From Squalus acanthias (Eukaryota): a stretch of 64,000 bases of DNA. The notes under the pieces were generated by a model, which did no database searches, was not told where the DNA came from, and was given only the letters and a program-made list of their open reading frames with translations. This document shows, piece after piece, positions 2,665 through 44,700 of this stretch. The DNA lies in contig CM059428.1 in the NCBI GenBank assembly GCA_030390025.1, positions 17,174,001 through 17,238,000 of the forward strand, written 5' to 3'. The position numbers and the translations under genes are program-made. How positions within the stretch are numbered: the stretch's first letter is position 1; each line of letters begins with the position of its first letter.

Positions 2665-2870
2665 ATGAACAAAAAACAAAATATTTCAGTTGCTGGAAAT
2701 CTGAAACAAGAACCGAAGCGCTGCAAACCCTCAGCACGTTGCGCAGCATCTGTCGAGAGAATACAATTCTACATTTCGGCTACGAAACCCTTGGAACTTT
2801 CTGTTCCTGAAACGTTGGTTTGTTCTCTTGACAGATGTTTAATATTTGCAGTGTTTTCTGTTTTTGATGA
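2665..2870. mobile_element. Old, diverged PLE-tail fold-back element
   Basis: TGCTGGAAATCTGAAA...GCAGCATCTGT on the left and CCTGAAACGTT...ACAGATG...GTTTTCTGTTTTT on the right. Confidence 0.55.
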
Positions 2871-4035
2871 AGTATGACCTTTTCCAAAAAGCTATGTTGA
2901 GATTCTGTAATAACCTTTCCTCTGTCAAGGTGGTCATGCAGATTATCTCAAATGATCCCTTCTAGCTTATACTGGTCAAACGAATGGGCCTGTAAGTTCC
3001 TGGTTTTTACTTATTTCCCTTATTAAATATTGGTACTACTTAGGCCTCTCTCAGTCCATGGAAACAATCCCAGACCTCGGCAGTTAAATAAGATGAGCAA
3101 GAGGATGTTTCCAGGCCTTGCCCTGCTTTGTCATTTTCAAGAGTGATCAATCTGCAGAGTGCAGTTAAAATTTGAATTCCTAAGCTAAATTTACAAATAC
3201 TTTTACTCAATTTTAACCAAAGTTCAAATATGTCCTGTGCTTCAGAGCTGTGCATGTGCTCGTTTACATATTTGTGCCTGAGTAACTTGAAATGTTGAAA
3301 GCACTTTATTTTTGTGATGTAAAACAAAGTGTTAACTAGCTTTTTGTGCAATTGATGTATAATATTGATGAGCACCAGTGCAGTGTGAGACTACCAGTGC
3401 ACTATGAAAGTGACCTATTTCATAACTCAGTGACCAGGACTACGTTACCATACTCCTTTCTAATCAGTTCCTCCAAACATAAGCAATGGTGAATCATGCA
3501 CTGTAGCACTATTTTATTTTCGAGTCTTCTAGGCAATTCTTTAAAGTCCTTTTTAATATAGGTGCGGTTTATTGTAAGTTCGTTCGACACCCACACCCAA
3601 ATTGTCAGAGGTCCCTGTTCCTGTTTTTGTAATGGCCATGTGCCTTCATCATCTTCCCTGAACCCTTACCATGCAAGACCTTGTTCTGATGTTGCAATTT
3701 GCTCTGTAGCTACTGTGAAAGAAAATGTTCATATTGTTAAATTAGTAGCTTACGATCTTAACTTTTTTTGTTAAATTTCTAGTAATTCCAGGAAAGCTCT
3801 GCTCTGCTTATCAGAAACTTCAGTGCTGCAAAAGCACATCACCTAGTGTTGAAATAACTGTCAGTTAATAGAGAGGAAAATTCGATCCTGGACTTTGTAC
3901 TGAAAGCCATGCAAACTGGTGGAGCTTGAGACTAGTCTACTACATGCTAGAATCCACCCTGTAGCATTGGAAATAACAACAGAAAACGCTGGAAAAACTC
4001 AGCAGGCCAGGCAGCATCCGTGGAGAGAGAAAGAG

Positions 4036-4072
4036 AGTTGACGTTTCAGGTCGATGACCTTTCATCAGAACT
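4036..4072 (-). ncRNA. Hammerhead ribozyme motif, identical copy in the inverted arm
   Basis: Exact reverse complement of 8009-8045. Confidence 0.85.
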
Positions 4073-4347
4073 GGGAAGAGCTGGAAATCAAATAGATTTA
4101 AGGCCAGGGTAAAGCTGGGAAAAGGGGGAGGGGATAAAGGAACAAAAGAGGAGATGAAGAGACATTAAGAGACATTAAGAGATATGCAAGGCTAGAGGTG
4201 GTGTTAATGTGACAGATTAAGGCTGAATGAAGTGTGAAATCTACTGGCAGAATGAAGGACAGCTGCCAGCTTCTAGGAGGAAAAAAAAGGTGGGGGGACA
4301 AATAAAAGGGTGGATAAAATAAAATATAAATGTGATTGGAGCTGAGG

Positions 4348-5427
4348 TTATGATCTAAAATTGTTGAACTCGATATTGAGTCCAGAGGGCTGTAGCGTGC
4401 CTAAACGAAAGATGAGGTGCTGTTCCTCGAGCTTACGCTGAGCTTCCGTGGAACAGTGTATTAGGCCGAGGACGGTGAGGTCAGAGTGGGAGTGAAGCGG
4501 TGAATTAAAGTGACAGGCCACCGGGAGCTCGGGGTCCCCCTTACGGACTGAACGGAGGTGTTCCGCAAAGCGGTCACCCAATCTGCGTTTGGTCTCCCCA
4601 ATGTAGAGGAGTCCACATCGTGAGCAGCGAATACAGTATACTAAATTGCAGGAAGTACAAGTAAATCGCTGTTTCACCTGGAAGGGGTGTTTGGGGCCCT
4701 GGACAGTGGGAAGAGGGGAGGTATAAGGGCATGTGTTGCATCTCCTGCGCGTGCACGGGAAGGTGCCGGGCGAAGGGGAAGGGGTGCTGGGGGTGGTAGA
4801 GGAGTGGACTAGGGTGTCGCGGAGGGAGCGGTCCCTGCGGAATGCTGAAAGGGGAGGTGAGGGGAAGATGTGTTTGGTGGTGGGATCACGCTGGAGGTGG
4901 CGGAAATGGCGGAGGATGATCCGTTGAATGTGGAGGCTGGTGGGGTGAAAGGTGAGGACAAGGGGAACCCTATCGTGGTTCCGGGAGGGAGGGGCAGGGG
5001 TGAGGGCAGATGTGCGGGAGATAGAACGGACACGGTCGAGGGCCGTGTCGACCACGGTAGAGGGGAATCCTCGGTTGAGGAAAAAGGAAGACATGTCGGA
5101 AGCACTGGTATGGAAGGTGGCATCATCAGAGCAGATGCGGCGGAGACGGAGAAACTGGGAGAATGGAATAGAGTCCTTACAGGAGGCGGGGTGGGAGGAA
5201 GTGTAGTCCAGGTAGCTGTGGGAGTCGGTGGGCTTGTAGTGAATGTTAGTCAATAACCTATCCCCAGAGATGGAGATGGAGAAGTCGAGGAAGGGAAGAG
5301 AAGAGTCGGAGATGGACCATGTGAAGGTGAGGGAAGGGTGGAAATTGGAAGCATAGTGAATGAAATGTTCTAGTTCAGGGCGAGAGCAGGAGACGGCACC
5401 GATACAGTCATCAATGTACCGGAAAAA
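4348..5427 (-). pseudogene. Inverted duplicate of the C-terminal PLE ORF (from FFRYIDD through the GIY-YIG domain), no ATG of its own at the junction
   Basis: Translation identical to the C-terminal part of the 5360..7732 ORF; the ORF-track start at 5445 is a TTG in the spacer. Confidence 0.9.
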
Positions 5428-7732
5428 TGAGGTCAAGGATCGCAAGCTTCAACAACTCTTGGACACTAAAGCCCCTCCGGAACCTTCTTCCCCTTCACTT
5501 TCCTCTGACCCCCCTTCTCCCAATCTCACCCCCTGCCGCGTTTTCACTATCCCCTCTGACCTTCCCCTCTCTGACTCCGAACGATCAGTCCTCAGCAAAG
5601 GCCTGAGCTTCATCCCCTTACGCCCCCATCTCAATGAATTTCGAGCTCGGCACGATGCTGAGCTCTTTTTCCGCCGCCTCCGTCTCCGTGCCCACTTCTC
5701 TGGCCAGGAGTCTTCCCCCCGCACGGCTGACCCTTTCTCCCGCTTTCAGAATTCTCGTTCCACCTGGACCCCTCCCTCTGGCCTCTTACCCTCTCTTGAT
5801 CTTTTCATTGCTAACTGCCGCCGCGACATCGGCCAGCTCAATTTCTCTGCTCCCCTCACTCACTCCAACCTACCTCCCTCTGAACTTGCAGCACTCCATT
5901 CTCTCCGATCCAACCCTGACATTGTCATTAAACCTGCTGACAAGGGTGGCGCTGTTGTTGTTTGGCGAACCGACCTCTACCTAGCGGAAGTTGAACGCCA
6001 ACTCTCTGACACCTCCTCCTACCTCCACCTGGACCATGACCCCACTACCGAACATCAAGCCACCGTGTCCAAGACTGTCACTGACCTCATCTCCTCTGGA
6101 GATCTTCCCCCCACGGCCGCCAACCTCATAGTTCCCCAACCCCGCACAGCCCGCTTCTACCTCCTTCCCAAGATCCACAAACAGGACTGCCCCGGTAGAC
6201 CCATCGTTTCAGCCTGTTCTTGCCCCACGGAACTTATCTCTTCCTATCTCGACTCTATTTTTTCTCCCCTTGTCCAGTCTCTTCCCACCTACATCCGCGA
6301 CTCTTCCGATGCCCTCCGCCATTTTAACAGTTTCCAGTTTCCCGGCCCCAACCGTCTCCTCTTCACTATGGACGTACAATCCCTCTACACCTCCATTCCC
6401 CACCAGGATGGCCTGAGGGCGCTCCGCTTCTTCCTTGAACAGAGGCCCAACCAGTCCCCATCCACCACCACCCTCCTCCGCCTGGCTGAACTTGTTCTCA
6501 CATTGAACAACTTCTCCTTTGACTCTACCCATTTCCTCCAAATTAAAGGTGTTGCTATGGGTACCCGCATGGGTCCTAGCTATGCCTGCCTTTTCGTGGG
6601 ATATGTGGAACACTCTTTGTTCCAGTCCTACTCGGGTCCCCTCCCTCACCTCTTTTTCCGGTACATTGATGACTGTATCGGTGCCGTCTCCTGCTCTCGC
6701 CCTGAACTAGAACATTTCATTCACTATGCTTCCAATTTCCACCCTTCCCTCACCTTCACATGGTCCATCTCCGACTCTTCTCTTCCCTTCCTCGACTTCT
6801 CCATCTCCATCTCTGGGGATAGGTTATTGACTAACATTCACTACAAGCCCACCGACTCCCACAGCTACCTGGACTACACTTCCTCCCACCCCGCCTCCTG
6901 TAAGGACTCTATTCCATTCTCCCAGTTTCTCCGTCTCCGCCGCATCTGCTCTGATGATGCCACCTTCCATACCAGTGCTTCCGACATGTCTTCCTTTTTC
7001 CTCAACCGAGGATTCCCCTCTACCGTGGTCGACACGGCCCTCGACCGTGTCCGTTCTATCTCCCGCACATCTGCCCTCACCCCTGCCCCTCCCTCCCGGA
7101 ACCACGATAGGGTTCCCCTTGTCCTCACCTTTCACCCCACCAGCCTCCACATTCAACGGATCATCCTCCGCCATTTCCGCCACCTCCAGCGTGATCCCAC
7201 CACCAAACACATCTTCCCCTCACCTCCCCTTTCAGCATTCCGCAGGGACCGCTCCCTCCGCGACACCCTAGTCCACTCCTCTACCACCCCCAGCACCCCT
7301 TCCCCTTCGCCCGGCACCTTCCCGTGCACGCGCAGGAGATGCAACACATGCCCTTATACCTCCCCTCTTCCCACTGTCCAGGGCCCCAAACACCCCTTCC
7401 AGGTGAAACAGCGATTTACTTGTACTTCCTGCAATTTAGTATACTGTATTCGCTGCTCACGATGTGGACTCCTCTACATTGGGGAGACCAAACGCAGATT
7501 GGGTGACCGCTTTGCGGAACACCTCCGTTCAGTCCGTAAGGGGGACCCCGAGCTCCCGGTGGCCTGTCACTTTAATTCACCGCTTCACTCCCACTCTGAC
7601 CTCACCGTCCTCGGCCTAATACACTGTTCCACGGAAGCTCAGCGTAAGCTCGAGGAACAGCACCTCATCTTTCGTTTAGGCACGCTACAGCCCTCTGGAC
7701 TCAATATCGAGTTCAACAATTTTAGATCATAA
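5360..7732 (+). CDS. PLE reverse transcriptase / GIY-YIG endonuclease ORF (790 aa; first ~23 aa come from the inverted arm)
   Basis: PLE motifs LSKGLSF, IKPADKGG, LPKIHK, GRPIVS, MDVQSLYT, GVAMG, FRYIDD, LPFLD; Cys linker CTRRRCNTC; endonuclease LVYCIRC...LYIGET...RFAEH; no internal stops. Confidence 0.93.
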   Translation: MKCSSSGREQETAPIQSSMYRKNEVKDRKLQQLLDTKAPPEPSSPSLSSDPPSPNLTPCRVFTIPSDLPLSDSERSVLSKGLSFIPLRPHLNEFRARHDAELFFRRLRLRAHFSGQESSPRTADPFSRFQNSRSTWTPPSGLLPSLDLFIANCRRDIGQLNFSAPLTHSNLPPSELAALHSLRSNPDIVIKPADKGGAVVVWRTDLYLAEVERQLSDTSSYLHLDHDPTTEHQATVSKTVTDLISSGDLPPTAANLIVPQPRTARFYLLPKIHKQDCPGRPIVSACSCPTELISSYLDSIFSPLVQSLPTYIRDSSDALRHFNSFQFPGPNRLLFTMDVQSLYTSIPHQDGLRALRFFLEQRPNQSPSTTTLLRLAELVLTLNNFSFDSTHFLQIKGVAMGTRMGPSYACLFVGYVEHSLFQSYSGPLPHLFFRYIDDCIGAVSCSRPELEHFIHYASNFHPSLTFTWSISDSSLPFLDFSISISGDRLLTNIHYKPTDSHSYLDYTSSHPASCKDSIPFSQFLRLRRICSDDATFHTSASDMSSFFLNRGFPSTVVDTALDRVRSISRTSALTPAPPSRNHDRVPLVLTFHPTSLHIQRIILRHFRHLQRDPTTKHIFPSPPLSAFRRDRSLRDTLVHSSTTPSTPSPSPGTFPCTRRRCNTCPYTSPLPTVQGPKHPFQVKQRFTCTSCNLVYCIRCSRCGLLYIGETKRRLGDRFAEHLRSVRKGDPELPVACHFNSPLHSHSDLTVLGLIHCSTEAQRKLEEQHLIFRLGTLQPSGLNIEFNNFRS

Positions 7733-8008
7733 CCTCAGCTCCAATCACATTTATATTTTATTTTATCCACCCTTTTATTTGTCCCCCCCACCTTTTTTTT
7801 CCTCCTAGAAGCTGGCAGCTGTCCTTCATTCTGCCAGTAGATTTCACACTTCATTCAGCCTTAATCTGTCACATTAACACCACCTCTAGCCTTGCATATC
7901 TCTTAATGTCTCTTAATGTCTCTTCATCTCCTCTTTTGTTCCTTTATCCCCTCCCCCTTTTCCCAGCTTTACCCTGGCCTTAAATCTATTTGATTTCCAG
8001 CTCTTCCC

Positions 8009-8045
8009 AGTTCTGATGAAAGGTCATCGACCTGAAACGTCAACT
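8009..8045 (+). ncRNA. Minimal type I hammerhead ribozyme motif (ACGU palindrome class) in PLE 3' region
   Basis: AGUU-CUGAUGA-A-AGGUC-AUC-GACCU-GAAA-CG-UC-AACU: conserved core, 5-bp stem II, 4-bp stem I; predicted cut after GUC (8041). Confidence 0.85.
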
Positions 8046-9178
8046 CTCTTTCTCTCTCCACGGATGCTGCCTGGCCTGCTGAGTTTTTCCAGCGTTTTCT
8101 GTTGTTATTTCGGATTTCCAGCATCTGCAGTATTTTGCTATCGCTGTAGCATTGGAAATGTGCCTGGACAGTTAGTTCTCTGTGCCATTTACTCGATCAG
8201 TGCGAGAGTTAGATATACTGCTGCTGCACTTATATCTTCAGAACCTTTGCCTAGCGTGTCAACCATAAAGCTTCTGCATACGGAGCACTGAGCTGTCATT
8301 TTGAAACTGTTCTACGTGCGCTAAAGTTGGAATGCAGTGTTAGCCACCACTAGTTAGACCCGCTCCAAAAAGCAAATCGGGTGATGTCATTAGGTGTTTG
8401 TGGTTGCCCCATTTTATGCCACCCAGTACATGTATAAAACATTTTCTCTTGCGCTCTTGTTGTATTTGAAGCACAATTGTTTTAAACAGCAGCTGTTCCT
8501 AAAAGAAAATGGGAGTTAAGGTAAGTTTTCATACTGCGCAGGTGGTATCATGCTATCAAACTAATACCAGATGCTGAGAGCCCATGATTAGCCCATCTTT
8601 GTGGAAGCATCACATCCCTTTCCAACAGATAGATGAACTTTTAGTATTTAAAATTTATTGCACTTTTTAAAATTTGCAGTGATTATATTTCTGTGTAGGT
8701 TTATTTTAATCAACTTTGGACTGGTTTGTGAATTACTTTTGAAACATTTTCTTGGGGGGTAGGGGAGGAGCCAGTCAAACACTGCCTGTTTCAGTTGATC
8801 ATGAAGTATCATGACAACACTCAACCACAGAGCAACCAGTCAACAAACACACAGGCAACTAGGCTGCAGGGTTAGTTGACCTTTTGAAATAGAATATGTA
8901 ACTTTACTTTGCAACAGTTATCTACTTTGTATTGCTGTTGTCCTTGGCTGATTTTGTTTTGTGCCCTATCACTGCGTTGTTTGTATACTTCATTATGCAT
9001 TTTTACTTGTTTTGCCCTGAGCATTTTTTATGGCCTTAGACTGCTTTGCCAAAATGTGGCTTTTGTTCCTAGTTATTGGGCCAAGAATGTTGGAATAGGA
9101 CAGATTTCAGAAAAGCGAGTGAACTTCCTGAAGTGAAGTGGAGAGACACCTTGACGTACAGGACTGTAGATCAGAGAT

Positions 9179-9905
9179 GGGGGCCCGTATTTTCCGATCG
9201 GAGGCTTCCTGCGTGCGGAGGCCTCCGATCTGGAAAAAATTTCCGGACTTACCTGAGGGCTCCCGAAGTGCGTATACTTCCGTTCCTGGGCGCCTCCAAA
9301 CTCAATGTGCCGGGCCCACGTATCCCAGGGGCGCAGGCAGTTCGCAAGTGTCCCTGGGATCACATGGGCCATGGGGAGCCAATAGGAGAAGGGAATCTCC
9401 CTTCATATATTTGACAGGTCTATCTGTCAAGTGTATGAATGGAGAGCACCCCAAAAACATTGTAAAACATTAAATAATTTTTTTTTAAATCACATTTTTA
9501 AAATGAGTTGAAATTACAATAAATATATCTTAAACAAATTTAATTTTTTGAAAAAAAAGTTTTTTACGAGGATAAAAAACTTTTTAAAAGTGTTTTTAAA
9601 TGATAAATGGAAAAAAAAAAAACTTTTTTCAACTCTTATGCTGGTAAAAGCAGGCCTTACGCCTGCTTTTACCAGGCATAAGATTTCTAAGGGCTTTCTG
9701 CGGGCGGAGGTTCTCCAGAAAACTGAACTATCTGCCCGCCGAGGCCCTTCTCCTGGGCAGGCGTCCGATCTGTCGAGCATTCTTGACAGATCGGAAATGC
9801 TGGTTTTCAGCGTATGCGCTTGGCATGCCTGAAACCAGCATTTCCGATGTCCCTACGGGTGTGTGCACAGCTCATACACACCCGTAGGCATCGGAATATA
9901 CGGCC
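9179..9905. mobile_element. Non-autonomous DNA transposon (MITE) with multiple internal hairpins; PIF/Harbinger-ISL2EU type inferred
   Basis: Imperfect TIRs GGCCCGTATTTTCCGAT / ATCGGAATATACGGCC, GC-rich palindromic ends, AT-rich centre; second copy at 42406. Confidence 0.75.
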
Positions 9906-10577: not shown

Positions 10578-11022
10578 TTAATAGAGGATAAACAGAAATT
10601 GGTGGGAATACTTAACAATGTTTCACATCAGTCTTTATAAAGGAGGATATTGGGACGGAGATAAATTCTGTATTGCTTAAAAGTAAGAGTAGAGATGTAA
10701 AGAAAAGTATTAAAGTAGTTAAGTCAAATGAGAACAAAATGCCAGGACCTGACAGGATACATCCAAAGATCCTGGGGGAAGAAATGGCAGTGGCCCCAGA
10801 AATTATGGCCAATTTAATACCAAATTTCAAAAAGGGAGACCGAACTAACCCAACTAATTACTGGCAAGTTACAAAAACTACTTGTATTTATATAGCACCT
10901 TTTTAATGTAGTAAAACATCCCAAGGCGCTTCACAGGAGTGTTCTAAGACACAAATTTTACACTGAGCCACAAGGAGCAATTAGGGCAGATGGTTTTAAG
11001 GAGCATCTTAGAGGGTTAGAAG

Positions 11023-11250
11023 AAAAGTGAGAAGTCGCACAACACCAGGTTATAGTCCAACAGTTTTATTTGAAATCACAAGCTTTCGGCGCGCTGCTCC
11101 TTCGTCAGGCCCGGATATGCCCACTTCACCTGACGAAGGAGCAGCGCTCCGAAAGCTTGTGATTTCAAATAAAACTGTTGGACTATAACCTGGTGTTGTG
11201 CGACTTCTCACTTTTGTCCACCCCAGTCCAACACCGGCATCTCCGCATCA
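11023..11250 (+). mobile_element. Fold-back mini-element made of PLE-type 3' tail (family 2, AGCU hammerhead)
   Basis: 87-bp inverted arms 11023-11109 / 11129-11215 with one mismatch, plus a 35-nt unpaired tail; flanked by GG(G/A)TTAGAAGA at 11013 and 11251; sits inside an L2 fragment. Confidence 0.8.
11126..11162 (+). ncRNA. Hammerhead ribozyme motif (AGCU palindrome class)
   Basis: UCAC-CUGACGA-A-GGAGC-AGC-GCUCC-GAAA-GC-UU-GUGA. Confidence 0.82.
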
Positions 11251-13929
11251 GGATTAGAAGAGGCAGAGGGGTTTAGGGAGCGAATTCCAGAGCTTGGGGC
11301 CAAGACAGCTGAAGGCACGGCCACCAAAAGTTGGGCGATTATAATCAGGGTTGCTCAAGAGGGCAGAATTAGAGGAGCGCAGCTATCTCGTTTGGTGGAG
11401 GGGGGTGGGAGGTAGTGGGGCTGGAGGAGGTTACAAAGATGGGGAGGGGTGAGGCCATGGAGGGATTTGAAAACTAGAATGAGAATTTTGAAATCGAGAC
11501 ATTGCTTACCCGGGAGCCAATGTAAGTCCGCAAGCACAAGGATGATGGGTGAAACGGGGCTTGGTGCGATTTAGGATATTGGCTGACAAGTTTACATAGG
11601 GTAGAATGTGGGAGGCCAGCCAGGATTGCATTGGGGTAGTCAAGTCTAGCGGTAACAAAAAGGCACGGATGAGCTGAGGTGGAGACGGCCGATGTTACGG
11701 AGGTGGAAATAGGCGTTCTTAGTTATGCCGCAGATATGTGGTCGGAAGCTCATTTCAGGGTCAGATATGACACCAAGGTTGCGAACAGTGGTTCAACCTT
11801 GGGGAGAGGGATGGAGTCAGTGGCTAGGGAACGGAGTTTGTGGTGGGAACCGCAAACCAGTTTAACATCTGTGGCACGGAAATGTTTTAGAATTGTTCAA
11901 GATGAAATTACTAAATTTCTTAAATTAGCAACCATCACTGATTCAGAAAGGAAGATTGTGCTTGTCAAACTGAGGTGACATATATGGGAGATGGGGAAAT
12001 GCAGTGGGTGTGGTGTATCTGGACTTTCAAAAAGTGAAAATACCACATTTGGAGAAGATTAAGGGGGATGAAATTGGGAGAAGGGGAGCAAATTGGATCT
12101 AAAAACTAGAGGAGAGGAAACCTTTTCTGTTCTGGGGGTTCAGGTTCATGTTAAAAGTAGCACTTCAAGTGGATAAGGCCATAACAAAAAGCTAATGGGA
12201 AATTGGGTTTTATGGCAAGAATATAAAAGTTGAGATATGATGTGAATCTATATTAAAACCTTAAGACCACAGTTGGAATACTGTGTGCTGTTTTGGGCTT
12301 CACGTTTATAGGTAGAACGTTGAGGCAGTAGAAGTGCAGAATCACTAGTAACTGATGTGATGAAATGCAAATATGAAGCAAGACTTGAAAAATTGGAGCT
12401 GTTGCAGAGGAGATTATGGAGTGATTTGACAGTTGTTTAAAATTATGAAGGGATTGTAGAGGGTAGAGAGACCCATTCCAATAGCTCAAAGTCTAGAACA
12501 ATGGGACATCTTGACTAGTTTTCCTCAAACGCCCTCTAATAAAGTGCACAATTGAGTTGATTTGCGTAATTTGGTAAACTGCACTCAACAGCTGGGAGAA
12601 GTATGTTTGAACTCCAGAATCAACTGACTTGAGCATCCTGTTAATGTAGTCCTGCAGGGAATCACTGACATTTGGGAAGGTGTAAGGCAATCTTTTTTCC
12701 GGAAGAAATGGCTGATACCATAATAAAACAACAGAACATTTGAATTTGCTTGTGTAATGAAATAAATTGGGACGTTTCTTTTAAATTTTTGCCTTGACTG
12801 GACCTAAATTTTCTGACCATCTTGGCCTGTGTACCATACGTTTGCAAACCAGGGTCCATGAACCCTAAAGGCTCCACGTGGATTCCAAGATTTCTTTCCC
12901 TCTGGGGCTCTGCATACTGCGTGCATGTTGAACACAGTGTGCAAGAGTTCTGTATTGAATGTTCTTTTCTGTATTCCATACTTTAAGAATTGCCGACTTA
13001 CTCCATTACTAATAGTTTCTGCAATAATAGTGTATGGGTAGCTGACAGTTTTTTGGAATTTAGGATAGGTGTTCCTCCGGACTATTTGCAGGGGAGCCGT
13101 CAGCAAAAACATGAGAATTTTTCCCCTATAATAAGTAAACGCCAGAAATATTTCAGTTGCAGCATATTCAGATCAAAAAGTAGGCTCAAAGATGCAGTGC
13201 GCTTATATAAAAGTCTTGGGTCTCGCATGTATTGAACATCACACTTGTATGCATTCACATTTTCAGACTGGCTCAAATTTCATAACAGCAATAATTACAA
13301 CTGACATCAGGAAAATACATGGGGACAAGTAGAAAGTGGGAACAAAAGCCACCACTCACGATGTTCAAGAACTACTAGTTAAAAGCAGGCAATCAGACAA
13401 CAGCTTAACAGTAGCAAAGAGCAGAAACAATTGTATCGCTCCATATAATTTTTGAAAATTGTGTGCCGTCTCGTCTTCTCCCCATGCTGAGGACTTAATA
13501 CATTTTCTAACTCTTCTATCTAACATTCTGGGCAAAGTTCACAGAATCCACCAGCAATCTGAGCTAAAACTCTCCAAATGCAGATTAAGGCTGCCTCTCT
13601 CGATCATATTTTGGAACCACGAAGGTGCTTATTAATACACCATGAATTTTGATTGACAGCAAGACTAGCCATTCACGGTCATACCAAGACATCCTATTTG
13701 TAAGCCCTGCCTCCTTGTCCCTGTTCAGTGATGATAAAGTTTGAAGGAAGGCTGCACTAAGAATGAGGAAAGCATTATTACAGCAGTGCATGGTTTTGAT
13801 TGTATGAAAGTATCAAAATAAGGTAAAGTGGTAACTTCTGAAATTCGTGAGATAACTGACAGGGCAAACTAGGCAAAAATTGACTTGTTAATGCAAGGAG
13901 CATTTTTATTTATGTAACTGGTATGTTGG

Positions 13930-14152: not shown

Positions 14153-14706
14153 TGTGAGGGTACACCCAGGAACCAGTTAAAAAAAAAAACCACTCTTGGC
14201 ACATTTGACTTTTCCCAGAAGTGGGGACTCTTTCTTCCCTCTTTCCCCCTCCCTCCTCCTCCTCTTTCTCCCCCCCCCCCCCCCCCCCACAAATCATTTG
14301 TAGCAGTGGAACTGTTGACTCAACCACCAAAATGCCATAGGAGATCTGCTGGAATCGATAAAAGAATTGAGATGTGTCTTGTCAATTTCACAGTCAACGG
14401 CAATCATTTCCTGTTGGCTTCAGAGAAACTTTCCACCAACAGAAAAGACTCTGACTAATGTCTGTGTACAACTGTAAGACATAGTGGCATTAAAGAGACA
14501 GGTTATATTACACACTGCTGCCCTTAGCAGAATAATACATTGTACATTGCATTGGTATATTGCTCTTTTTAAAATAGCATTTCACTGATACCATGCGTGC
14601 TCCTCTGGTACACTAGTAATTGTTGGCTAACAATTTGTAGTACGGTCACTTTTTTTTGTTCTCAACCTATCTATGTAACATTTTGTTTTTCAGGTCACGC
14701 TTCAAA

Positions 14707-14774
14707 ATGAATATCATCAAAGAAAACAAGGATTTGGCCTGTTTCTACACAACAAAACACTCATGGAGGGGAAA
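14707..14774 (+). CDS. DNAJC13: DNAJC13 coding exon 1 (exon begins 14694 with 13 nt of 5' UTR)
   Basis: ttttcag|GTCACGCTTCAAAATG; [23 protein letters not shown]; donor AA|gtaagt. Confidence 0.96.
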
Positions 14775-20700: not shown

Positions 20701-23700
20701 CGGATCCCTTTGCTCCTCTACCTCACCTAGACTCGTGACCTCCCTATTCTTCCTACCAAAACGTAATACCTCACATTTGTCTGTATTGAACTTCATTTGC
20801 CAATTATATGCCCATTTTGCAAGTTTATTAATGTCTTCCTGTAATTCGTTGCAGTCGTCCTCCGTATTAACTATCTCCCCCCTACCCCCCATCCAAATTT
20901 GGTGTCATCTGCAAATTTAGAAATTGTGTTTTTGATTCCAAAGTCTAAATCGTTAATGCAAATTGTGAACAAGTGGTGCCAGCACTGATCCTTGTGGAAC
21001 ACCACTACCCACCTTCTGCCACTGTGAATAGCTACCCTTTTACCCCTACACTCTGCTTTCTGTCTTGAAGCCAGCTAGCTAGCCATTCTGCTACTTGTCC
21101 CCTGACTCTGCATTCTCTGTCCTTGTTCATTAGTATTATGGGGTACCTTATCGAAGGCCTTTTGAAAATCTAGATGAATTACATCTACTGCCTTACCATT
21201 GTCTACTCTGTTACCACTTCAAAAAATTCAATGAGGCTGGTCAAGCAAGACGTTCCCTTTTTGAAATCCATGCTGACTTTTCCTTATTTTTGGTTTCTAG
21301 ATGTTCTATTTACTCCTTTTTAGTAGGGATTCCATTATTTTTCCTATCACCGATGTTAAGCTGACTGGTCTATAATTCCCTGGGCATGTTCCATCCCCCT
21401 TCTTGAATATAGGTATTGCGTTAGCTATCAGTCAGTCCTCTGGCACTACACATTTTTCTAACTAATTATTAAATGTTTAGTAATGCCTCTGCTATCTTTT
21501 CCCTAGATTCTTTTAAAATGCAATCCATCTGGACCAGGGATTTTATCATCTGAGTTTGATTAGTTTATTTAATATATCCTCTCTCTTTTAAATGCACTTC
21601 TCATTACTAATCTCATCATCCAATGTCATGTCCACCTGTTCTATCTCCCTGGTAAATACTGAAGCAAAATAATTATTTAATATTTCTGCCATCATCGTTA
21701 CCTTAATTGCTCTATTCCCAACCTCTTTTTATTGATGTGCCTGTAAAATATTTTACTGTTTTGTTTTGTTAATTTAATTTCATAGTTTCTCTTTGCCTTC
21801 CTAATTGTTTTTGACTTCTCTCCTAATCTTTGTATTTTCTCTCATGCACTCCATGTACTTAATGTATGTCTCTTTCCTTGTCCTCAATTGTTCCCTTATG
21901 GCTTTATTCATCCATTGAGTCTCATTAGTATTTAGTTCTTTCCTTTTAGCAGAATATATTGTTCCTGCACTCTGTTGAACAGTGTTTCAAATGTTTCCCA
22001 TTGCTGTTCTACATCGTTGTTTGCCAATATTGTTGCCCATTTTATTTTCCAAAGTTCTATTCTCAGCCCCTCAATCAACTTTTCTCCAATCTATTAACCT
22101 GGTTTTCATCATACTTATGTCCTTCTCAATTATCATAAAGCATATTATATTATGGTCACTATTGCCTGGATGTTCCCCCTACTTTTACTTTAGTGCCAAG
22201 TGGACAAGGTACCTGTTGCCTGCGGGACTGTAATATAGCAAAGGATCAATGCCTTAAGGAGCAGAGAAACCACACTCTTCATAGAATCGTATAATCATAC
22301 AGCACAGAAGGTGGCCAGTAGGCCCATCGTGCTTCTGCCAGTTCTTTGAAAGAGCTCTCCAATTAGTCCCACTCCCCTGTTCTTTCCCCATAGCCCTGCA
22401 AGTTTTTCCTTTTCAAGTATATATCGAATTCCTTTTTGAAAGTTACTATTGAATCTGCTTCCGCTACCCTTTCACAAGCGCATTCCACACCATTAGAGCT
22501 TGCTGCGTAAAAATAAAGTAAATTCTCCTCACTTTCCCCCCAGGATATTTTTGCCAATTATCTTAGATCTGTGTCCTCTGGTTACCAACCCTCCTGCCAG
22601 TGGAAACAGTTTCTACCTATCTGCTCTTATCAAAATGCCTCAATTTTGAGCACCTCTATTAAATCTCTCCTTAACCTACTCTGCTCTAAGGAGAACAATC
22701 CCAGTTTCTCTCATCCCTCCACATAACTGAAGTTCCTCATCCCTGGTACCATTCTGGTAAATCTTTTCTGCACACTCTCCAAGGTCTTGACAACCTTCCT
22801 AAAGTGTGGTGCCCAGAATTGAACACTGTTTATAAAGGTTTAACATAACTCCCTTGCTTTTGTACTCTGTGCTTCTATATGGTGCTCAAAATTGGGCACA
22901 ATACTTTAGCTGTGCTGAACCAGTGATTTTGTAAAGGTTTACCATAATTTCCTTGCTTTTGTACTCTATGCCTTTATTTATAAAGCGGAGATGCCGGTGT
23001 TGGACTGGGGTGGACAAAATTGAGAGGTCGCACAACACCAGGTTATAGTCCAACAGTTTTATTTGAAATCACAAGCCTCAGGAAGGGGCGATCGATAGCT
23101 CCGAAAGCTTGTGATTTCAAATAAAACTGTTGGACTATAACCTGGTGTTGTGCGACCTCTCAATTTTATTTATAAAGCCAAGGATCCCATGTTTTAACAG
23201 CTTTATCAACTTGTCCTGCCATCTGATTTGTGTATCTGAACCCCCAGGTCTCTGTTCCTGCACTCCCTTTCAAATTGTCCCATTTCATTTATATTGCCAC
23301 CTCATTTTTCCTTCCAAAATGTGTCACTTCACACTTCTCTGCATTAAATTTCATCTGCCGTGTCTCTGCCCATTTCACGAGTCTGTCTGTGTCCTCCTGA
23401 AGTCTGCTACTATCCTCCTCACTGCTACATTTCCAAGTTTTTGTCATCTGCAAACTTTGCAATTATGTCCCCTACACCCAAGCCTAGGTCATAAATATAT
23501 ATCAAGCAGAGCAACAGCAACAACTTGTATTTATATAGCGCCTTTAACGTAGTAAAACGTCCCAAGGAGCTTCACAGGAGTATTTTAAGACAGTTGTTTC
23601 AGATGCTGTGCAATTTATTTTTATTAAATTGTTCTACTCACTTTATATTTAACAGTCATTTTATATTCATGTTCTATAACTATCTGTTCCATGTCAGCCC

Positions 23701-26700
23701 ACTATCAGTGGTGGGGAAACTTCTGGAGATTATTATTCCAGGACAAAATTAATTGTCACTTGGAAGAACATGGGTTCATAAATGACAGGCAACATGGATT
23801 TGTTAAAGGCAAATGGTGATTGAAATTTGATTGAGTTCTTCAATGAAATAAAGATGGATGAAGGTAGTGCAGCTGATGTATATATGGACTTTTGGAAGGC
23901 TTTGATAAAGTGCCACATAATAAACGTTAGCAAAGCAAAATTGAAGCCAATAGGATTAAAGGTGCAATGGCAGCAACGTTCTGATGAAAGGTCATCGACC
24001 TGAAACGTTAACTCTTTCTCTCTCCACGGATGCTGCCTGGCCTGCTGAGTTTTTCCAGCGTTTTCTGTTTAGTATTTTAAGACAAAAAGTTTGACAAAGA
24101 TAAATTAGGGCAGGTGACCAAGAGCTTGGTCAAAGAGGTAGGTTTTAAGGAGCATCTTAAAGGAGGAAAGCGAGGCTGAGGGGTTTAGGCAGGGAATTCC
24201 AGAGCTTAGGGCCTAGGCAACAGAAGGCACGGCCACCAAAGGTTGAGTGATTATAATCAGGGATGCTCGAGGGCAGAATTAGAAGTGGTCATAATACTGA
24301 CCCCTGGGGGACACCACTGCATACTTCGCTCCAGTCTGATAAACAACCGTTCACCACTGTTTTCTGTTTCTTGGCCAATTTTGTGTCCAAGCTGCCATTG
24401 CACCTTTAATCCTATTGGCTTCAATTTTGCTTTGCTAACGTTTATTATGTGGCACTTTATCAAAGCCTTCCAAAAGTCCATATATACATCAACTGCACTA
24501 CCTTCATCCATCTTTATTTCATTGAAGAGCTCAATCAAATTTCAATCACCATTTGCCTTTAACAAATCCATGTTGCCTGTCATTTATGAACCCATGTTCT
24601 TCCAAGTGACAATTAATTTTGTCCTGGAATAATAATCTCCAGAAGTTTCCCCACCACTGATAGTGGGCTGACATGAAACAGATAGTTATAGAACATGAAT
24701 ATAAAATGACTGTTAAATATAAAGTGAGTAGAACAATTTAATAAAAATAAATTGCACAGCATCTGAAACAACTGGGAACTGGTGGCAATAATGCATAGCG
24801 AGGAGCCAGATGTAGTAGGGATAACTGAAACATGGCTATATTAAGAAAAGGACTGGCACTTAAATATTGCAGGATTTAGTATAGGGAAGGAAAAAGGGGG
24901 TGGGGTAACTGTACTATTAGAGATAATCTAATGGCAGTGGAAAAAAGGGACATCACTAACAAGATAGAAACAGAATCCATATGGATTGAGATGAAGGTTA
25001 AGAAGGGATTGATCATGGTAATAGGGGTATTTACTGATCACCTAATAGTGGAAGGGAAGTGGAGAAAGAAGTATGTAAGCAAATCTATGAAATGAGTAAA
25101 AGAGATGCAATAACAATCATGGAAGATTTCAACTACCCCCAAATGAAGAATGGGTAGGGGTAGAGGAAAAGGGAATGGAGTTCTGTGTGCAGGACTCCTT
25201 TCTTACCCAGTACATAGAGGTCCAACAAGAGAAGAATCACTGCTGGATCTAGTAATGGGTAATGAACCAGAGCAGATAAGAGAAGTAAGCGTAGGGGAAC
25301 ATCTAGGCAATAGCGATCACACCATAAGATTTAAAATAATGATTGAGAAAGACATGCGTACTAACAGATTGGGGGGGAAAGCTAATTTTGAGTGGAGGAG
25401 AATGGAACTAGGGAAAGTAAAATGGAAAAAAAAAAGTTGACACATAGAACAGCAGCAGGAAATATTTAAAAAGGTGATCAGTAGTTCAGGAGAAAAATAT
25501 TCTGCGAACACACTAGCCAATAATGAAACACCATAAGTGAATAAAGAGATGAGGGTAAAATTGAAACTAAAGAAAAAGGCATACACTAAGTACATAGACA
25601 ATAAAGGAGAGGATGACAAAAGGGAATACGAAGAGGTTAGGAAAGCATTCAAAAACAATATTGGGAAAGCCAAGAGAAACTACAAAATTAACTTATCGAG
25701 GCATATAAAAAGAAATAGTGAAGTATTCTACAGACAAATAGCAAAAGAAAGGAAAAATCAGGTTAGGGATAGTGCCACTAAGGGCTGCATAAGATAAACT
25801 TGCAGGTAATGACAATGAAATGGAAGAAATATTGAACAGTTACTTTGCCTCGGTATTTAGGGAGACTAACAGTGGACATGACATTGGAAGAAGAGATCAA
25901 AAAAGATATAAAGACATTTAAGAGAGAAAGGGGGAGATAATAAACTAATCAAACTGAGGATAAAACCCCATTGCTTCCACCCATAATTAAAGCAGTTAGA
26001 GATGGCAGAAACACTATATTGTATAATTTTTTTATTAGTATTCATTAGCAAAGGGAATCGTGCCAGAGGACAGCTAATGTCGGTGGTAGGAAAGATAATG
26101 GAATCCTTATATAATATCAGCACCGATTTCAAAAGGAAAGGTCATGCTTGACCACCCTTGGAGAAAGCAAGAGTAATGTAGTAGATGTAATCTGTTGGAT
26201 TTTCAAAAGGCCTTGGATAAGGTACCGCATGTGGAGTCAGGGGACAAGTAGCAGAATGGATAGCACGCTGGCTACAAAACAAAACACTAGGGTTTAAGGG
26301 TAGTTACTCAGACTGGCAAAAATGGGAAGTGCTGGGACCACTTCACCATTTACAATAGATTTTGGTCTCTGGAATGAGAAGTACAATTTCAAAATTTGCG
26401 GATGACACCAAATTGGGGGGGTATAGTTAATACTGAGGAAGACTGTGACAAAATACAGAAGGTATTAGTAAATATGCAGAATGTACAGGTAATTGGCAAA
26501 TTAATTTCAATGTAGCTAAGTGTGAAGTGGTGCATTTGTTGGGAAGAATAAGGAGGCCATATAATCCTTGGAAAATAAATCTAAATGGGGTACAGGAGCA
26601 AAGGAATCTAGGTGTACAGTTACATAAATCACTAAAGGTAGCGAAACAGGTTAATAAGGCCATTATATTAAAATGAAACACATCACTGGTTCATTTTTAG

Positions 26701-29700
26701 AGGGATAGAATTGAAAAGCCGAGAAGTTATGTTTAAACTCCTATAGACCTTGGGTTAGACCACACTTTGAGTACTGTGCACAGTTCTGGACTCCATATTA
26801 CAAAAAGGATCTAGAGGCAGTGGAGAAGGTGGTGGTGGTGCTCCGTTTGCCAGAAGGCCTTATTTGGAAGACCTGAATTAGTGATTTCAGAGTGCAAGGT
26901 ATTGCCTTGAGTAAAGGGTCCCACCTGAAGCATCAATCGGCTTTTTTATTTCGGCTGCTGACTAATTTGGTATTTCTAGGATTTTCAACATTTGTGCTCT
27001 TTTATCTGTATTCTTGATGCTTACATGCTGCTTTTGCTATGTGGGAATGATTATGTATTACTGTAATTTGATTTTTCTTTTTCCTTTAGTAGGTGCTCCT
27101 TCAAAGCTTAAAACTGAGGAGCCATTAAACAATATTTTTTAAGGAATATCACTAAGCCACTGCAGTAACTAATCACTAAAATTAATTGTTCAAATTAAGT
27201 AAAACTCCTTTTTTGTATAAAGAATACTGACTACTGTGTACTGATATTAAACTGTTCATGTGTCCTTGTGCTCTTTTTTTTCCCCTTTAGATACAAGCGA
27301 GTCTTTTCAATTGGTACGCATGCTGTAACCACGTACAATCCCAGCACCCTAGAAGTTACCAATCAGGTAATGAATGGTAGTTACCTTAGTGACACTTTGA
27401 TTAGTTTTAAAGATAATTGCCTGTTTTTGTGCTGTAAATTACATGTGATGTGATTGTTTTGCACATAATGGCCCAAAAATTAGTGAGGGAGCCTTCGTGC
27501 GAGGGTAAGGCTTCCCCGCGATCTCTCACTGCGCGTTGGCTTTTTCAGTTCCAGCTCGCACGAACTTGATGTTCTGGACAGCTGCTGTGCTGGGCTTGCG
27601 TATCCCACAGGCGCAGTTAATTCGTGCGAGCTGTGGGATCACGTGACTCAGTTAGAGCCAATGGCAGCACACCATCTTCCATTCATAACTTTCACATAAG
27701 TGCTGTGAAAGCTATGAATCTATGCCCCCCCAAAAGAACAGCTAAACCTCAATTAAATTAAAAAAAAACATCACATTAATAAAATAAGTATAGTTAAATA
27801 AATTAACCATTTTAAATAAAAAATTAAATTTTTGAAAAAATTTAAAATCTTTTAAAAAGTTATAAAAATAAACTTACCTGTCTTTAAAGTCTCTAAAAAA
27901 GATATACCTGTTAAAAAAAATTCAAAATAATACTTAATTCACTACTTACCTTGTTAAAAGTGGGTCTTACTCCTTTTTTATGTGTAAAATCTTCCGTACT
28001 TACCTGCGCGTTGAAACCACTAAGTGCACTGCATGCGCGCAGCCTGTAGCGCGCACGCGGTTCAGCTAGGAACCGCCCCCTTTTCCATTCACCATGTGCC
28101 GGTTTTCAGCGCATGCAGAAAACCGGCAATTGGAGACAGAATACGCGAGAGTACGCAGTGCGTACTCTCGCGTAGCGGCACTAATTTTGGGGCCATTGAC
28201 ATTTACTGATTGGAAATAATGACTAAAATTTGTCCAGAAAAATCTATTTCAGAAAGTAGGTGAGTCGTTGTCTCCCCATCCTCTCTCCCTTTGTGCCTGA
28301 CTACCCCTCCAACCACTGGCCTTTTGCTGGTTCTTTGTGGGGGCTTCACTTTGGCAGTTGCCAAGTTTCTAATTTATGTTGTTTGGGTCAACTTTTTTTA
28401 TTACATGGGATTCTGGCATTTTTACATGTGCATTGGGCATCGTAATCTGAGATTGTCTGCCGCAAACTGGTTTCCTTGGCCATGACCTGCACCAGGGTAC
28501 AATTGCATAGACGCAAGTGGGCGTCCCTGTGTAAGCTAGCCTGTGAATGTGAGCAGCTATTGGAACAGAAGCTGTTCCTGCTGGATGGTTGTCCTTAATT
28601 CCAAGTTACTCCTCAAAATAATAGGGTTCAAGAACATTTATTGTTATTCACCGGGTATTAAGCATACAGTGATGACTATTATTGACAATAATTACATATA
28701 CTTGAGTACCACTACGGCCATACTTTGAGAGTTTACCAGAGAATTCAAGCACGTTACAATTCTCAAACTCGGGGGGGTTCAAGAGTCATAGTCATACGGC
28801 ACAGAAGGAGGCCATTCGGCCCATCGAGTCCGTGCCAGTACAGACCTCCTTGAATTCCAAAGTATCTGTTCTAACTTCCACTTTTTAAGCATTTTTTCCT
28901 ACCCTGCTGCTTGAGAATTCACATGGTTTTTACATTACCTAATCCACATTTATCATTGAACACTGATTTAATTGTCCTGTCCTTTCAGCACACCGAGCAT
29001 ACTCCCTTAATTTGACTCGCACGCCCTAATCTTCAGATTGATTTGAGTTTCTTGGGCAGGTGCCTTTTCAAGGCTGGAGCTAACAAAAGCCAGCTTCTTT
29101 GTAATCTCTTATTGGCTAAAGGCTGTCTCTGCCTGGTATTTCTTTTAATTCCCACTGACTAAACTGAACATTGCTAAAACACACTCATCCAAAATAAAGC
29201 AAACCTGTACTACATTTTCATCCTTCAACAGAAGCTCACCTAACAGGCAAAAGCTAAAAATTAATATAAAAAAACCCTTTCCTTACAAAGTGCTTCATTC
29301 TAATGGAAGCCACATGGCTGCTGAGTTTGTATTTCTAAATCCCATAACACTTTCTAGGTATACAATTCCTTCAATGTAACTCTGCTATTGAGCATGAGAG
29401 CAACTGCAATATACTAAATGCATTATTTAAATTATGCCCAAGCTCAAGAAAATGTTTCAAAACTGTGGTAAACGCCTTTTCCTTGTAGTGGCCTTATGGC
29501 GATATCTGCAGCATCGGTCCTGTTGGGAGAGGACAAGGGACGGAATTCAACTTGACCTTTCGTAAAGGAAGTGGAAAAAAATCTGAAACCCTTAAATTTT
29601 CTACTGAACATAGAACAGAGTTACTAACTGAAGCACTGGTAAGTTTTACTTGAGTTTCAAAAATTCTTTAATGTTCAGGTGGTAAACCAAGTAACTGGCT

Positions 29701-41700: not shown

Positions 41701-44700
41701 TTGATCATAAACTGCCTGAGCAATGTCTTCAACCCAGAAATATGTGGCGGAGAATGTTGTGTATTCTTCAACCTAGAGCTGTAGACTATCTTGCCTCTAG
41801 TTTATGGTTTTATTTTTATTGTTGAGTAGCAACACATATGCTCGCACATGTGGGAAATATTGTTTCATTTCTGCCAACTTTGCTTTTTTCTAGGATCCAG
41901 TAAAGAGAGTATTAGCACTTACAGAAACTTGTTTAGTGGAACGTGATCCAGCCACCTACAATATTGTAACATTAAAGCCTTTGGGAGAGGTTAGTATCAT
42001 TTTAGACCAATTTATTAATTCCCTTTTAACAGTATGCCATTCCCTGACAGAGCAGGGAAGTCACTCGCTCCAAAGTGGTTGTCTAAGCTATTCTAGCTAC
42101 TGGGAGACAATGTAGTGCATCTGTGTGAGTTTGTCAACTTGTATAGGAATTTGAGAGAGAGAAAAAAGAAAGACTTGCATTTATATAGCGTCCATCACGA
42201 CCGCCGGATGTCCCAAAGCACTTTACAGCCAATGGCGCACTCTTTGAAGTGTAGTCACTGCTGCAATGTAGAAAGGTGTAGAGTATTACTACACACACAC
42301 GTTCTACCCTGCTAAATTGCCCTTATTGAAGAGGCATTTATAAAGTGCCTTGTAGACTGTCAAACCCAAAGCATTTCACATACTTTTAACTGCTCCATTC
42401 ACAATGGGCCTGTATTTTCCGATCGGAGGCTTCCCGCGTGCGGAGGCCTCCGATCTGGAAAAAATCTACGCACTTACCTGAGTGCTCCCGAGGTGCGTAT
42501 AGTTCCGTTCCTGGGCGCCTCCAACTCAAGTGCGCAGGGCCCATGTATCCCAGGGGCGCATGCGGTTCACAAGTGTCCCTGGGATCACGTGGGCCATGGG
42601 GAGCCAAAGAAGGGAATCTCCCTTCATGGAGATCAATGAAAAAACATAGTAAAACATTAAAAAAAATAAATTTACAAACCATCACCTTTTTAAAATGAGT
42701 TAAATTACAATAAATTAAATATTTTAAACATTTTATTTTTTGAAAAAAATAGTTTTTTACAGGGGCTAAAAATAAACTGCTTTTACCAGGTGTAAGAATT
42801 CTAAGGGTTTTCTGTGGGCGGAGGGTCTTCAGAAAGCGGAACTGTCCGCCCACAGAGGCCCTTCCCAGGGCAGGCGTCCAATCGGTCAAGAGCATTCTTG
42901 ACAGATTGGAAATGTCGGTTTTCAGCAGCATGCCTGAAACCAGCATTTCCCATGTCCCTACGGGTGGTACACCGCGTACCCACCTGTAGAGATTGGAATA
43001 TCCGGGCCATTATTTAAGTTAGTTTGAAGTGCAGTGACTGTTTTATAGGCAAAATAAATGAGAAGCTTGAGGTAAGAGTGGTGTTTGAAATGCAAGATAC
43101 AAAAATGTTATTTTTGAAGGTCTCTTGGTTGGGATTGTTTGAGACATCAAATATGGCTTATGGCCCACTAGTTGCAGAACATGTTTTTGAAGGTCAAGAA
43201 ATAAAGCTTGATGTTTCACTGCTCTTACAGGTGTTGCCTTCAGAAGGGACAAGCTTCTTCAGTGAACTGTTAAATAACAGCAAAAAGTCAGGTTTCCTAC
43301 TTCAGATTGAAAATTGAAACCCTTAAGCTATTGCCTAGATCAATGCAAATTGCTCCTACCCTGTCTGTTGCAGTAGAAAATATGGAAACCTGGCCTTCAG
43401 AACTTAATTTGAAAGATGCCCTTTCGTGACATCTGCCTGTAATTAGAGTTATCTAGGGAATGGGTTTTGTTTGCAATTGCTTTTTGTTGGTATTGAACAG
43501 ATCGGTTTTAGTTTTTTTAATCACTTCTGAAGACTGCCAGTTGTTTTCCTATGTTGGTGAAATTATTCAACTAGACTGTTAAACATTACTTCAACTGCAA
43601 TGATCTTTTTTCTCCACTTTCCTCCCCTCCCCCCCCCCCCCCCAAAACAGATATTTGCTCTAGTGCTTGATTCTGAAAATCCTCAGCGATTTACTATTGA
43701 ATATATTAAAGGGCAGGTTCATACGTACTCCTCAACTGAAAGGTATGAGATTTTATACATGCTATTGTAATTCAGTTTCCATTGGGTGCCAGGAGGAGAA
43801 AAACAGATCTGCTGTTGAATCCATGAAGAATTCATACAATATTGAAGTGATTCACTTTCTGAATATTTTGACTTGTAAACTGAACTCCAGGGAATTCTAA
43901 TACAAAAGCAAAATACTGCGGTGCTGGAAATCTGAAATAAAAACAAACAACTTTTTCCAGTTCTGACGAAAGGTCATTGACCTGAAACGTTAGCTCTGTT
44001 TCTCTCTCCACAGATGCTGCCTGACCTGCTGAGTATTTCCAGCATTTTGTTTTTATTCTTGGTATTCTAGTCTTCTGGGCTGGCTATTCTAAGTTTTCAG
44101 CTCTCTCTAACTAAAGGAAATGCCTTGCTTATAATATGCCATTTCTCTTTAGCATAATATTTCCAGCAACCCTTTCCATTTCATAGAATCATGCATTATA
44201 GAATCATAGAAGGAGGCCATTTGGCCCATCATGCCTGTGCTGGCTCTGAGTGATCCAATTAGTCCCACTTCCCTGCTCTTACCCCATAACCCTGAAACTC
44301 TTTCCTTTTTAAGTAGAGATCCAATTCCCTTTTGAAAGTTACTATTGAATCTGCTTTCAGTACCCTTTCATGGAATTGGATGCAACCTATTGACATGGGT
44401 AGGGAATTGGTTAGGAGGTAGGAGACAGTAGGGATAATGGGTATGTATTCAAATTGGCACGATGTGACGAGTGGTGTTTGCCAGCGATCTGTACTGGAGC
44501 CTCAGCTTTTCACTATTTTTATAAATGACTTAGATGAAGGAATACATGGCCGTATACCCTAGTTTGCTAACGACACCAAGTTAGGTGGGTCAGTAAATAG
44601 TGTAGATGGGAGCAGAACGTTGCAAAGGGATATTGATAGATTAAGTGAGTGGGCAAAACTGGCAGATGGGGTTCAATGTGGGGAAGTGTATGGTCATCCA

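What the first reader, a model, noticed from the sequence alone, without database searches (positions are those of the whole stretch)
3959..8159. Young Penelope insertion built as a 1.46-kb inverted repeat with both 3' ends pointing outward inside one TSD
Seen: one 16-bp TSD encloses a 5'-truncated PLE plus a reverse-complement copy of its own 3' 1.46 kb. The arms are identical apart from one homopolymer. The left arm stops 32 nt short of the true terminus and overlaps the TSD by a 5-nt microhomology (GAAAT, 3970-3974). Known: PLEs often show partial tandem or inverted pseudo-LTR copies. Inference: both strands of the staggered cut primed synthesis on the same template, one terminally and one internally, and the products joined near 5428. 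This duplicates sequence, whereas L1 twin priming only inverts it.
Basis: partly seen in the sequence, partly recalled or inferred. Interest (0 to 1): 0.72.

Follow-up and report, generated by a model that had tools for sequence, protein, structure and literature searches.

The report
Ordinary head-to-head Penelope retroelement insertion
A very recent jumping-gene insertion in a shark-like genome consists of two truncated copies joined head to head with a short extra tail at one end, which is the layout already described as typical for Penelope-like elements.

Summary
In detail: exact 16-bp TSD (3959-3974, 8144-8159), arms of 1458/1459 nt differing by one homopolymer base, 1225-nt spacer, left arm 32 nt short, 5-nt overlap. 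The element is a 5'-truncated RT + GIY-YIG Penelope-like element with the Neptune/Nematis-type Cys linker. Contigs from a ~99%-identical sample and two relatives leave the stretch exactly at the TSD end, implying an empty site and a very young insertion (inferred from lengths, letters not shown). No run held the filled allele. The layout is textbook: inverted 5'-truncated copy, 30-40-nt tail at one end, TSD (PMC8557442, PMC3846280). Four more copies of the layout lie in this window, and this scan noted it in other genomes. Priming from both cut strands is the best mechanism (~0.6): it fits in vitro data (PMC11167929) and two neighbours whose arms each hold sequence the other lacks. The 32 nt is the family tail between two RT start sites rather than a shortfall from an RNA terminus, and L1 twin priming can also duplicate sequence.

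The parts
3959..3974 (+). left copy of the 16-bp target-site duplication
   Evidence: exact repeat of 8144-8159; single-copy contigs of three runs match the left flank up to exactly 3974 and then leave the stretch
3970..3974 (.). 5-nt overlap between TSD end and tail-less arm end
   Evidence: chance 0.002 at a fixed site, 0.018 as best of 16 sites, 0.084 if the primer already ends in AAT
3970..5427 (-). left arm: inverted 5'-truncated copy (RT C-terminal part, endonuclease, 3' UTR), tail-less end
   Evidence: reverse complement of 6653-8111, one homopolymer indel
5423..5433 (.). head-to-head junction; GAGGT at 5429-5433 equals the next five bases the left arm would have copied (6652-6648), offset by one extra T at 5428
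   Evidence: the native sequence upstream of 5428 was not obtained, so the full extent of microhomology is unknown
5428..6652 (+). spacer: single-copy 5' part of the longer truncated element
   Evidence: continuous reading frame with the right arm
5429..7732 (+). uninterrupted 767-codon remnant of the RT + GIY-YIG ORF, lacking about 140 N-terminal residues
   Evidence: Pfam RVT_1 E 1.9e-5 and GIY-YIG E 2.9e-4, both under the curated cut-offs; DKG, GxxMG, YIDD, CX4CxxC linker, CCHH found; median 141 (124-169) residues missing against 27 full-length relatives of the 120 fetched
6653..8111 (+). right arm
8010..8044 (+). minimal hammerhead-like motif in the 3' end (core at 8013, hairpin 8021-8033)
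   Evidence: read from the sequence against a recalled core consensus; hairpin present in the centroid fold, but the 159-nt region folds no better than shuffles (z 0.24) and Rfam gave 0 matches at gathering score
8112..8143 (+). 32-nt one-sided 'tail'
   Evidence: absent from left arm; related tail sequence at 43907-43951 and 2677-2712 and as loose ends of 105-244 contigs per run at 3970
8144..8159 (+). right copy of the TSD

Best explanation
One integration event of an endonuclease-bearing Penelope-like element. The endonuclease cut the two strands 16 bp apart, leaving two 3' overhangs. Each 3' end primed reverse transcription on element RNA, one at the start site that gives the tailed end (8143) and the other at the start site 32 nt upstream (8111), possibly steadied by 5 bp of pairing. 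The two cDNAs stopped after about 2.7 kb and 1.46 kb, were joined head to head through a short imperfect match near 5428, and gaps were filled, giving the TSD. Shown: anatomy, TSD, family type. Inferred from geometry, neighbours and in vitro work on another clade: the two primings. Not determined: one RNA or two, one dimer or two separate enzymes.
For: Both arms have cDNA polarity from their TSD end. PMC11167929: both strands cut and extended, two adjacent RT start sites bracketing the tail, no difference in start sites between strands, dimer predicted. 5 of the 5 inverted Penelope-type insertions I could delimit in this window have one tailed and one tail-less end (this one, 43907-44057, 11023-11249, 22985-23167, 53403-53640). 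In 2 of these 5 (22985-23167, 43907-44057) the tail is on the arm with the shorter core, so each arm holds element sequence the other lacks and neither can be a copy of the other. A tail-less end also occurs with no second element arm at 23978-24070, directly against a 14-bp TSD. Empty-site contigs in 3 of 4 runs laid.
Against: For this insertion alone the left arm is wholly contained in the right-hand copy, so a fold-back copy of one cDNA fits equally. The two discriminating neighbours could have lost internal sequence after insertion, and the 43.9-kb copy is old with only a 9-of-11 TSD candidate. The in vitro work is on a Penelope/Poseidon element, reports no homology between RT start site and cut DNA, and this element is of the Neptune/Nematis type. 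No run carried the filled allele, so the arrangement rests on the assembly. A search for proteins continuing the peptide read from the hammerhead ATG found none (7 candidates, 0 hits), so I could not show that the RNA runs on past the tail.
Confidence: 0.62

Rival explanations
1. Single priming plus fold-back: one cDNA (8143 to 5428) annealed its 3' end to itself at 6648-6652, copied itself back to 8111, and was joined to the left overhang by the 5-nt match.
For: Left arm is a subset of the right copy; arms have no substitution; 5-nt imperfect match at the inner junction and 5-nt match at the outer one. Fold-back inverted duplications are described at L1-made ends (bioRxiv 2024.12.14.628481, passages), and 23591-23974 in this window looks like such a fold-back of host DNA.
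Against: Gives no reason why copying should stop at the family's tail boundary; cannot make the two neighbours whose short arm bears the tail; tail-less ends match an in vitro RT start site.
Confidence: 0.22
2. Self-priming on an antisense template before or during integration, as proposed for head-to-head Penelope repeats in Adineta vaga.
For: Proposed in PMC3846280 (Discussion) from palindromes at inverted junctions; the 53.4-kb neighbour has a near-perfect hairpin at its centre.
Against: No palindrome at this junction: the turn encloses 1225 nt. Later in vitro work used a sense template spanning the pLTR-ORF junction.
Confidence: 0.08
3. Assembly artefact (fold-back read or collapsed copies).
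For: No run laid holds the filled allele; arms are nearly identical.
Against: An artefact would not be expected to duplicate exactly the 16 bp at which empty-site contigs leave the stretch, nor reproduce a one-sided tail of the published size; four other copies of the layout lie nearby.
Confidence: 0.04
4. Two separate insertions, or a later recombination or conversion between two copies.
For: The family is very abundant (64,673-129,257 contigs laid per run at 88% likeness).
Against: One TSD encloses both parts, no second TSD at the inner junction, arms without substitutions, and the site appears empty in a ~99%-identical sample.
Confidence: 0.04

Closest known systems
Canonical insertion unit of endonuclease-bearing Penelope-like elements (Craig et al. 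2021, PMC8557442, Fig. 2 legend and text; passages read)
   Same: 5'-truncated copy with an adjacent inverted 5'-truncated copy forming inverted repeats around the unit; 30-40-nt tail at only one end; hammerhead motif in the 3' repeat.
   Different: No partial tandem (no direct pseudo-LTR) and no full-length ORF here; the inverted arm is long (1.46 kb) and intact.
Pen2a_Av of Adineta vaga (PMC3846280; passages and Discussion read) and the frequent D. virilis Penelope form with large inverted terminal repeats of variable size and a 34-37-bp repeat (PMC2377424; passages read)
   Same: Inverted terminal copy, 31-37-nt one-sided extension, whole unit inside one TSD (9-10 bp in A. vaga).
   Different: Those are Penelope/Poseidon-type or bdelloid families with direct pseudo-LTRs; TSD here is 16 bp; no palindrome at the inner junction.
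PAc (Poseidon of Anolis carolinensis) in vitro reaction (PMC11167929; parts 1-2 of 4 of the text read)
   Same: Two RT start sites bracketing the tail, downstream of a hammerhead whose core overlaps an ATG; both strands cut and extended. Here the two ends lie 96 and 128 nt from the corresponding ATG; PAc's main site is at 111-118.
   Different: PAc lacks the Cys linker clade mark; the paper reports no homology at priming; in the parts read it does not address inverted insertions.
L1 twin priming (Ostertag and Kazazian 2001, recalled, not read; PMC12350158 passages read)
   Same: Both cut strands prime cDNA, giving an inverted 5' part inside one TSD.
   Different: In L1 the second primer lands far from the 3' end and most of the sequence is copied once; here both starts are 32 nt apart, so the whole short arm is duplicated; no poly(A) tail.

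Membership tests
Endonuclease-bearing Penelope-like element | Single ORF with PLE-type RT followed by C-terminal GIY-YIG endonuclease | tested here: met
   Pfam RVT_1 and GIY-YIG hits in that order, below gathering cut-offs; 2496 homologues, best 71% in a bamboo shark protein
Endonuclease-bearing Penelope-like element | [quoted passage not shown] | tested here: met
   motifs found in the ORF; definitions from PMC8557442
Endonuclease-bearing Penelope-like element | Inverted or tandem truncated copies with a one-sided 30-40-nt tail | tested here: met
   inverted arm and 32-nt tail; definition
Endonuclease-bearing Penelope-like element | Hammerhead ribozyme motif in the terminal repeat | tested here: inconclusive
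   core and stem II visible at 8013-8041; Rfam 0 hits; fold z 0.24; activity not testable
Endonuclease-bearing Penelope-like element | Partial-tandem pseudo-LTR upstream of a full ORF (needed for an active copy) | tested here: not met
   this copy is 5'-truncated by about 140 codons and has no upstream direct repeat; it is a non-autonomous product, which is common for the family
Neptune/Nematis-type PLE | CX2-5CxxC linker between RT and endonuclease | tested here: met
   CX4CxxC at ORF residue 633; absent in Penelope/Poseidon per PMC8557442
Neptune/Nematis-type PLE | Placement in an RT tree with named reference elements | not tested
L1-type twin priming | Poly(A)-primed first strand and a second primer far inside the RNA | tested here: not met
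   no poly(A) at 8143; second start only 32 nt away

The most novel reading that the evidence does not exclude
Inverted Penelope insertions are made by a coupled, dimeric reaction in which the two cut strands are each assigned to a different one of the two RT start sites, so every inverted unit has exactly one tailed end regardless of which arm is longer. Genomes like this one, with very many young polymorphic copies, would let that be tested by counting. In this window 5 of 5 inverted copies have one tailed end (1 in 32 if each end chose at even odds) and 2 of 5 carry it on the short arm. I did not find this stated in searches or in the passages read, but I could not read the 2005 and 2006 reviews of these elements.
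Probability: 0.4. Interest if true: 0.5.

Novelty: new member of a known kind. Interest (0 to 1): 0.22.

Why it matters
As a structure it is ordinary. Its value is as a clean, young fossil of the Penelope integration reaction: PMC8557442 names the origin of the tandem/inverted structures and the tail as still open, and an insertion with an intact TSD, both junctions and an apparently empty allele in the population is the kind of case a genome-wide test would collect. It lies about 6.5 kb upstream of the ATG exon of a DNAJC13/RME-8 gene; if that is a 5' intron (not shown), the 1.46-kb inverted repeat could form double-stranded RNA in the pre-mRNA.

Tried and rejected
No whole genome is held, so no genome-wide tabulation of copies. 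Rfam at gathering score: 0 matches in 64 kb. My hammerhead regex scan printed no match (pattern probably too strict), so the motif call is by eye. Folding 7985-8143: z 0.24. Search for longer proteins beginning with the peptide from the hammerhead ATG: 0 hits among 7 candidates. In one search the 'opposite strand' joints 5427-6650 only reflect the native element running on from the arm into the spacer and are no evidence for the inner junction; loose ends at 3970 only reflect tail-bearing copies and do not prove a shared endpoint; run X1 did not reach the site (its contig covers 3051-3910); the tool showed only the best-supported rows (8096 loose ends and 633 joints not shown), so the native sequence upstream of 5428 was not seen. 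Pfam scan covered 112 of 224 non-repeat frames (up to 37.4 kb): 1 hit, RME-8. Supplement text of PMC11167929 (3 files) had no hit for tail, inverted, microhomology or TSD; its supplementary figures could not be seen and may bear on the endpoint claims. Literature search for shark PLEs returned nothing relevant. A resemblance between the TSD and the tail (7-nt match at 8114-8120) was considered as self-like target choice and dropped: the three TSDs of the second family do not resemble their tail.

Full report
Observation. The described structure is in the sequence. A 16-bp direct repeat lies at 3959-3974 and 8144-8159 and is exact. Between them, 3970-5427 is the reverse complement of 6653-8111 with no substitution and one extra base in a G/C run; that run is also length-variable among other family copies (table 4). 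The arms enclose 1225 nt. The right-hand copy ends in 32 nt (8112-8143) that the left arm lacks, and the last five bases of the left TSD are also the first five of the arm.

What the element is. 5429-7732 is an open frame of 767 codons with weak Pfam hits to RVT_1 and GIY-YIG in that order, both below curated cut-offs. A homology search gave 2496 proteins among 8000 candidates scored; the closest named ones are from sharks and rays (71-74% identity). DKG, GxxMG, YIDD, a CX4CxxC linker and the CCHH motif are present. By the definitions in PMC8557442 (passages) the linker marks the Neptune/Nematis type rather than Penelope/Poseidon; I built no tree. Against 27 full-length relatives of the 120 fetched, about 141 N-terminal residues are missing, so this copy is 5'-truncated and has no upstream pseudo-LTR. 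A minimal hammerhead-like motif is visible at 8010-8044, though neither Rfam nor folding supports it statistically.

Age and empty site. Ten runs held part of the left flank; I laid four on 2800-6650. In three of them a single-copy contig matches the flank up to exactly 3974 and then continues off the stretch for 1054 (X2, 8 differences and 4 gaps in 1175 nt), 1098 (X8) and 1057 nt (X10; both about 95% alike). If these continuations are the right flank they end at 9213-9257, and the next repeat in the window starts at 9181, where such contigs would be expected to break. The letters were not shown, so the empty site is inferred, but the left junction is clearly absent from those contigs. The fourth run did not reach the site. 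The insertion is therefore probably polymorphic within the species or younger than a very recent split. No run held the filled allele, so the inverted arrangement itself has no independent read support.

It is a known layout. [quoted passage not shown] PMC3846280 (passages) describes such a unit with a 31-bp tail inside a 9-bp TSD. PMC2377424 (passages) describes D. virilis copies with large inverted terminal repeats of variable size, and a curation guide lists inverted pseudo-LTRs and short 3' extensions as standard peculiarities (PMC8969392, passages). The window itself holds four more copies of the layout: 43907-44057 (related family, old) and 11023-11249, 22985-23167 and 53403-53640 (a second family, TSDs of 12-14 bp). 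Earlier notes of this scan report the same on other genomes (unchecked, not counted as support).

Mechanism. A staggered cut that yields a TSD leaves two 3' overhangs, and here each points into an arm of cDNA polarity. PMC11167929 (parts 1-2 of 4 read) shows for an anole element that both strands are cut and extended, that RT starts at two adjacent internal sites whose interval is the tail, and predicts a dimer. The two ends here lie 96 and 128 nt from the ATG that overlaps the hammerhead core, comparable with 111-118 for the main site in that element. This makes two primings, one at each start site, the simplest account. The inner junction shows a 5-nt match offset by one base (5429-5433 against 6652-6648), as expected for annealing of two cDNA ends, but equally for a fold-back. 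For this insertion alone fold-back cannot be excluded. The neighbours tip the balance: in 2 of the 5 inverted copies the tail is on the arm with the shorter core, so neither arm can be copied from the other, unless sequence was lost later. At 23978-24070 a tail-less end abuts a 14-bp TSD with no second element arm, so tail-less ends can be primary ends.

The 32 nt is the family tail; I could not show that the RNA continues past it here (one search found nothing), but nothing shows a terminus either. The 5-nt overlap is unlikely at a fixed site (0.002) but less so allowing 16 sites (0.018) or an AAT-ending primer (0.084), and a 7-nt match only 9 nt away was not used; tail-less ends in the three second-family copies overlap their TSD by 1, 3 and 0 nt (read by eye). 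Pairing probably fine-tunes a start site fixed by the element. L1 twin priming can also leave duplications at the inversion point (PMC12350158, legend), so the contrast is one of degree.

Context. The insertion lies about 6.5 kb upstream of the ATG exon (about 14707) of a DNAJC13/RME-8 gene on the + strand (gene name for the first exon rests on a recalled motif and the Pfam hit at 27.3 kb). No CpG-rich window outside the element was found, so a 5' intron is plausible but not shown.

Verdict. Real, young and well preserved, but an instance of the described insertion unit of Penelope-like elements. Interest 0.22.

Noticed in passing
window 23579-24084 and 24391-24774: Inside a 14-bp TSD (23579, 24071) a 92-nt tail-less 3' end of this same family is joined to a 384-nt inverted copy (3 mismatches) of host DNA lying about 300 nt downstream; looks like a Penelope-triggered fold-back duplication of flanking DNA, as described for L1 ends in bioRxiv 2024.12.14.628481.
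   Followed up: partly
window 11012-11261, 22973-23178, 53391-53652: Three short head-to-head insertions of a second hammerhead-bearing family, each with a 12-14-bp TSD and a 31-38-nt one-sided tail.
   Followed up: partly
window 43891-44071: Old short inverted insertion of the main element's wider family with the tail on the very short arm; TSD candidate only 9 of 11.
   Followed up: partly
window 50997-51054 and 22973-23178: Two insertions of the second family sit at nearly the same A/T-rich position of two copies of one host repeat, hinting at a preferred target.
   Followed up: no
runs X8 and X10, joint 5405/5406 to 3971: In both relatives a contig at about 9-20 times single-copy depth joins the tail-less end directly to the RT YIDD region: a partial tandem or an internally deleted derivative of the family.
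   Followed up: no
window 2677-2870: Degenerate fragments of the same wider family, a tailed minus-strand piece followed by what looks like a plus-strand piece; possibly a sixth, very old inverted unit (by eye; not counted).
   Followed up: no
window about 14693-14774 and 27291-27366: First two coding exons of a DNAJC13/RME-8 gene on the + strand; most of the window is its introns.
   Followed up: partly
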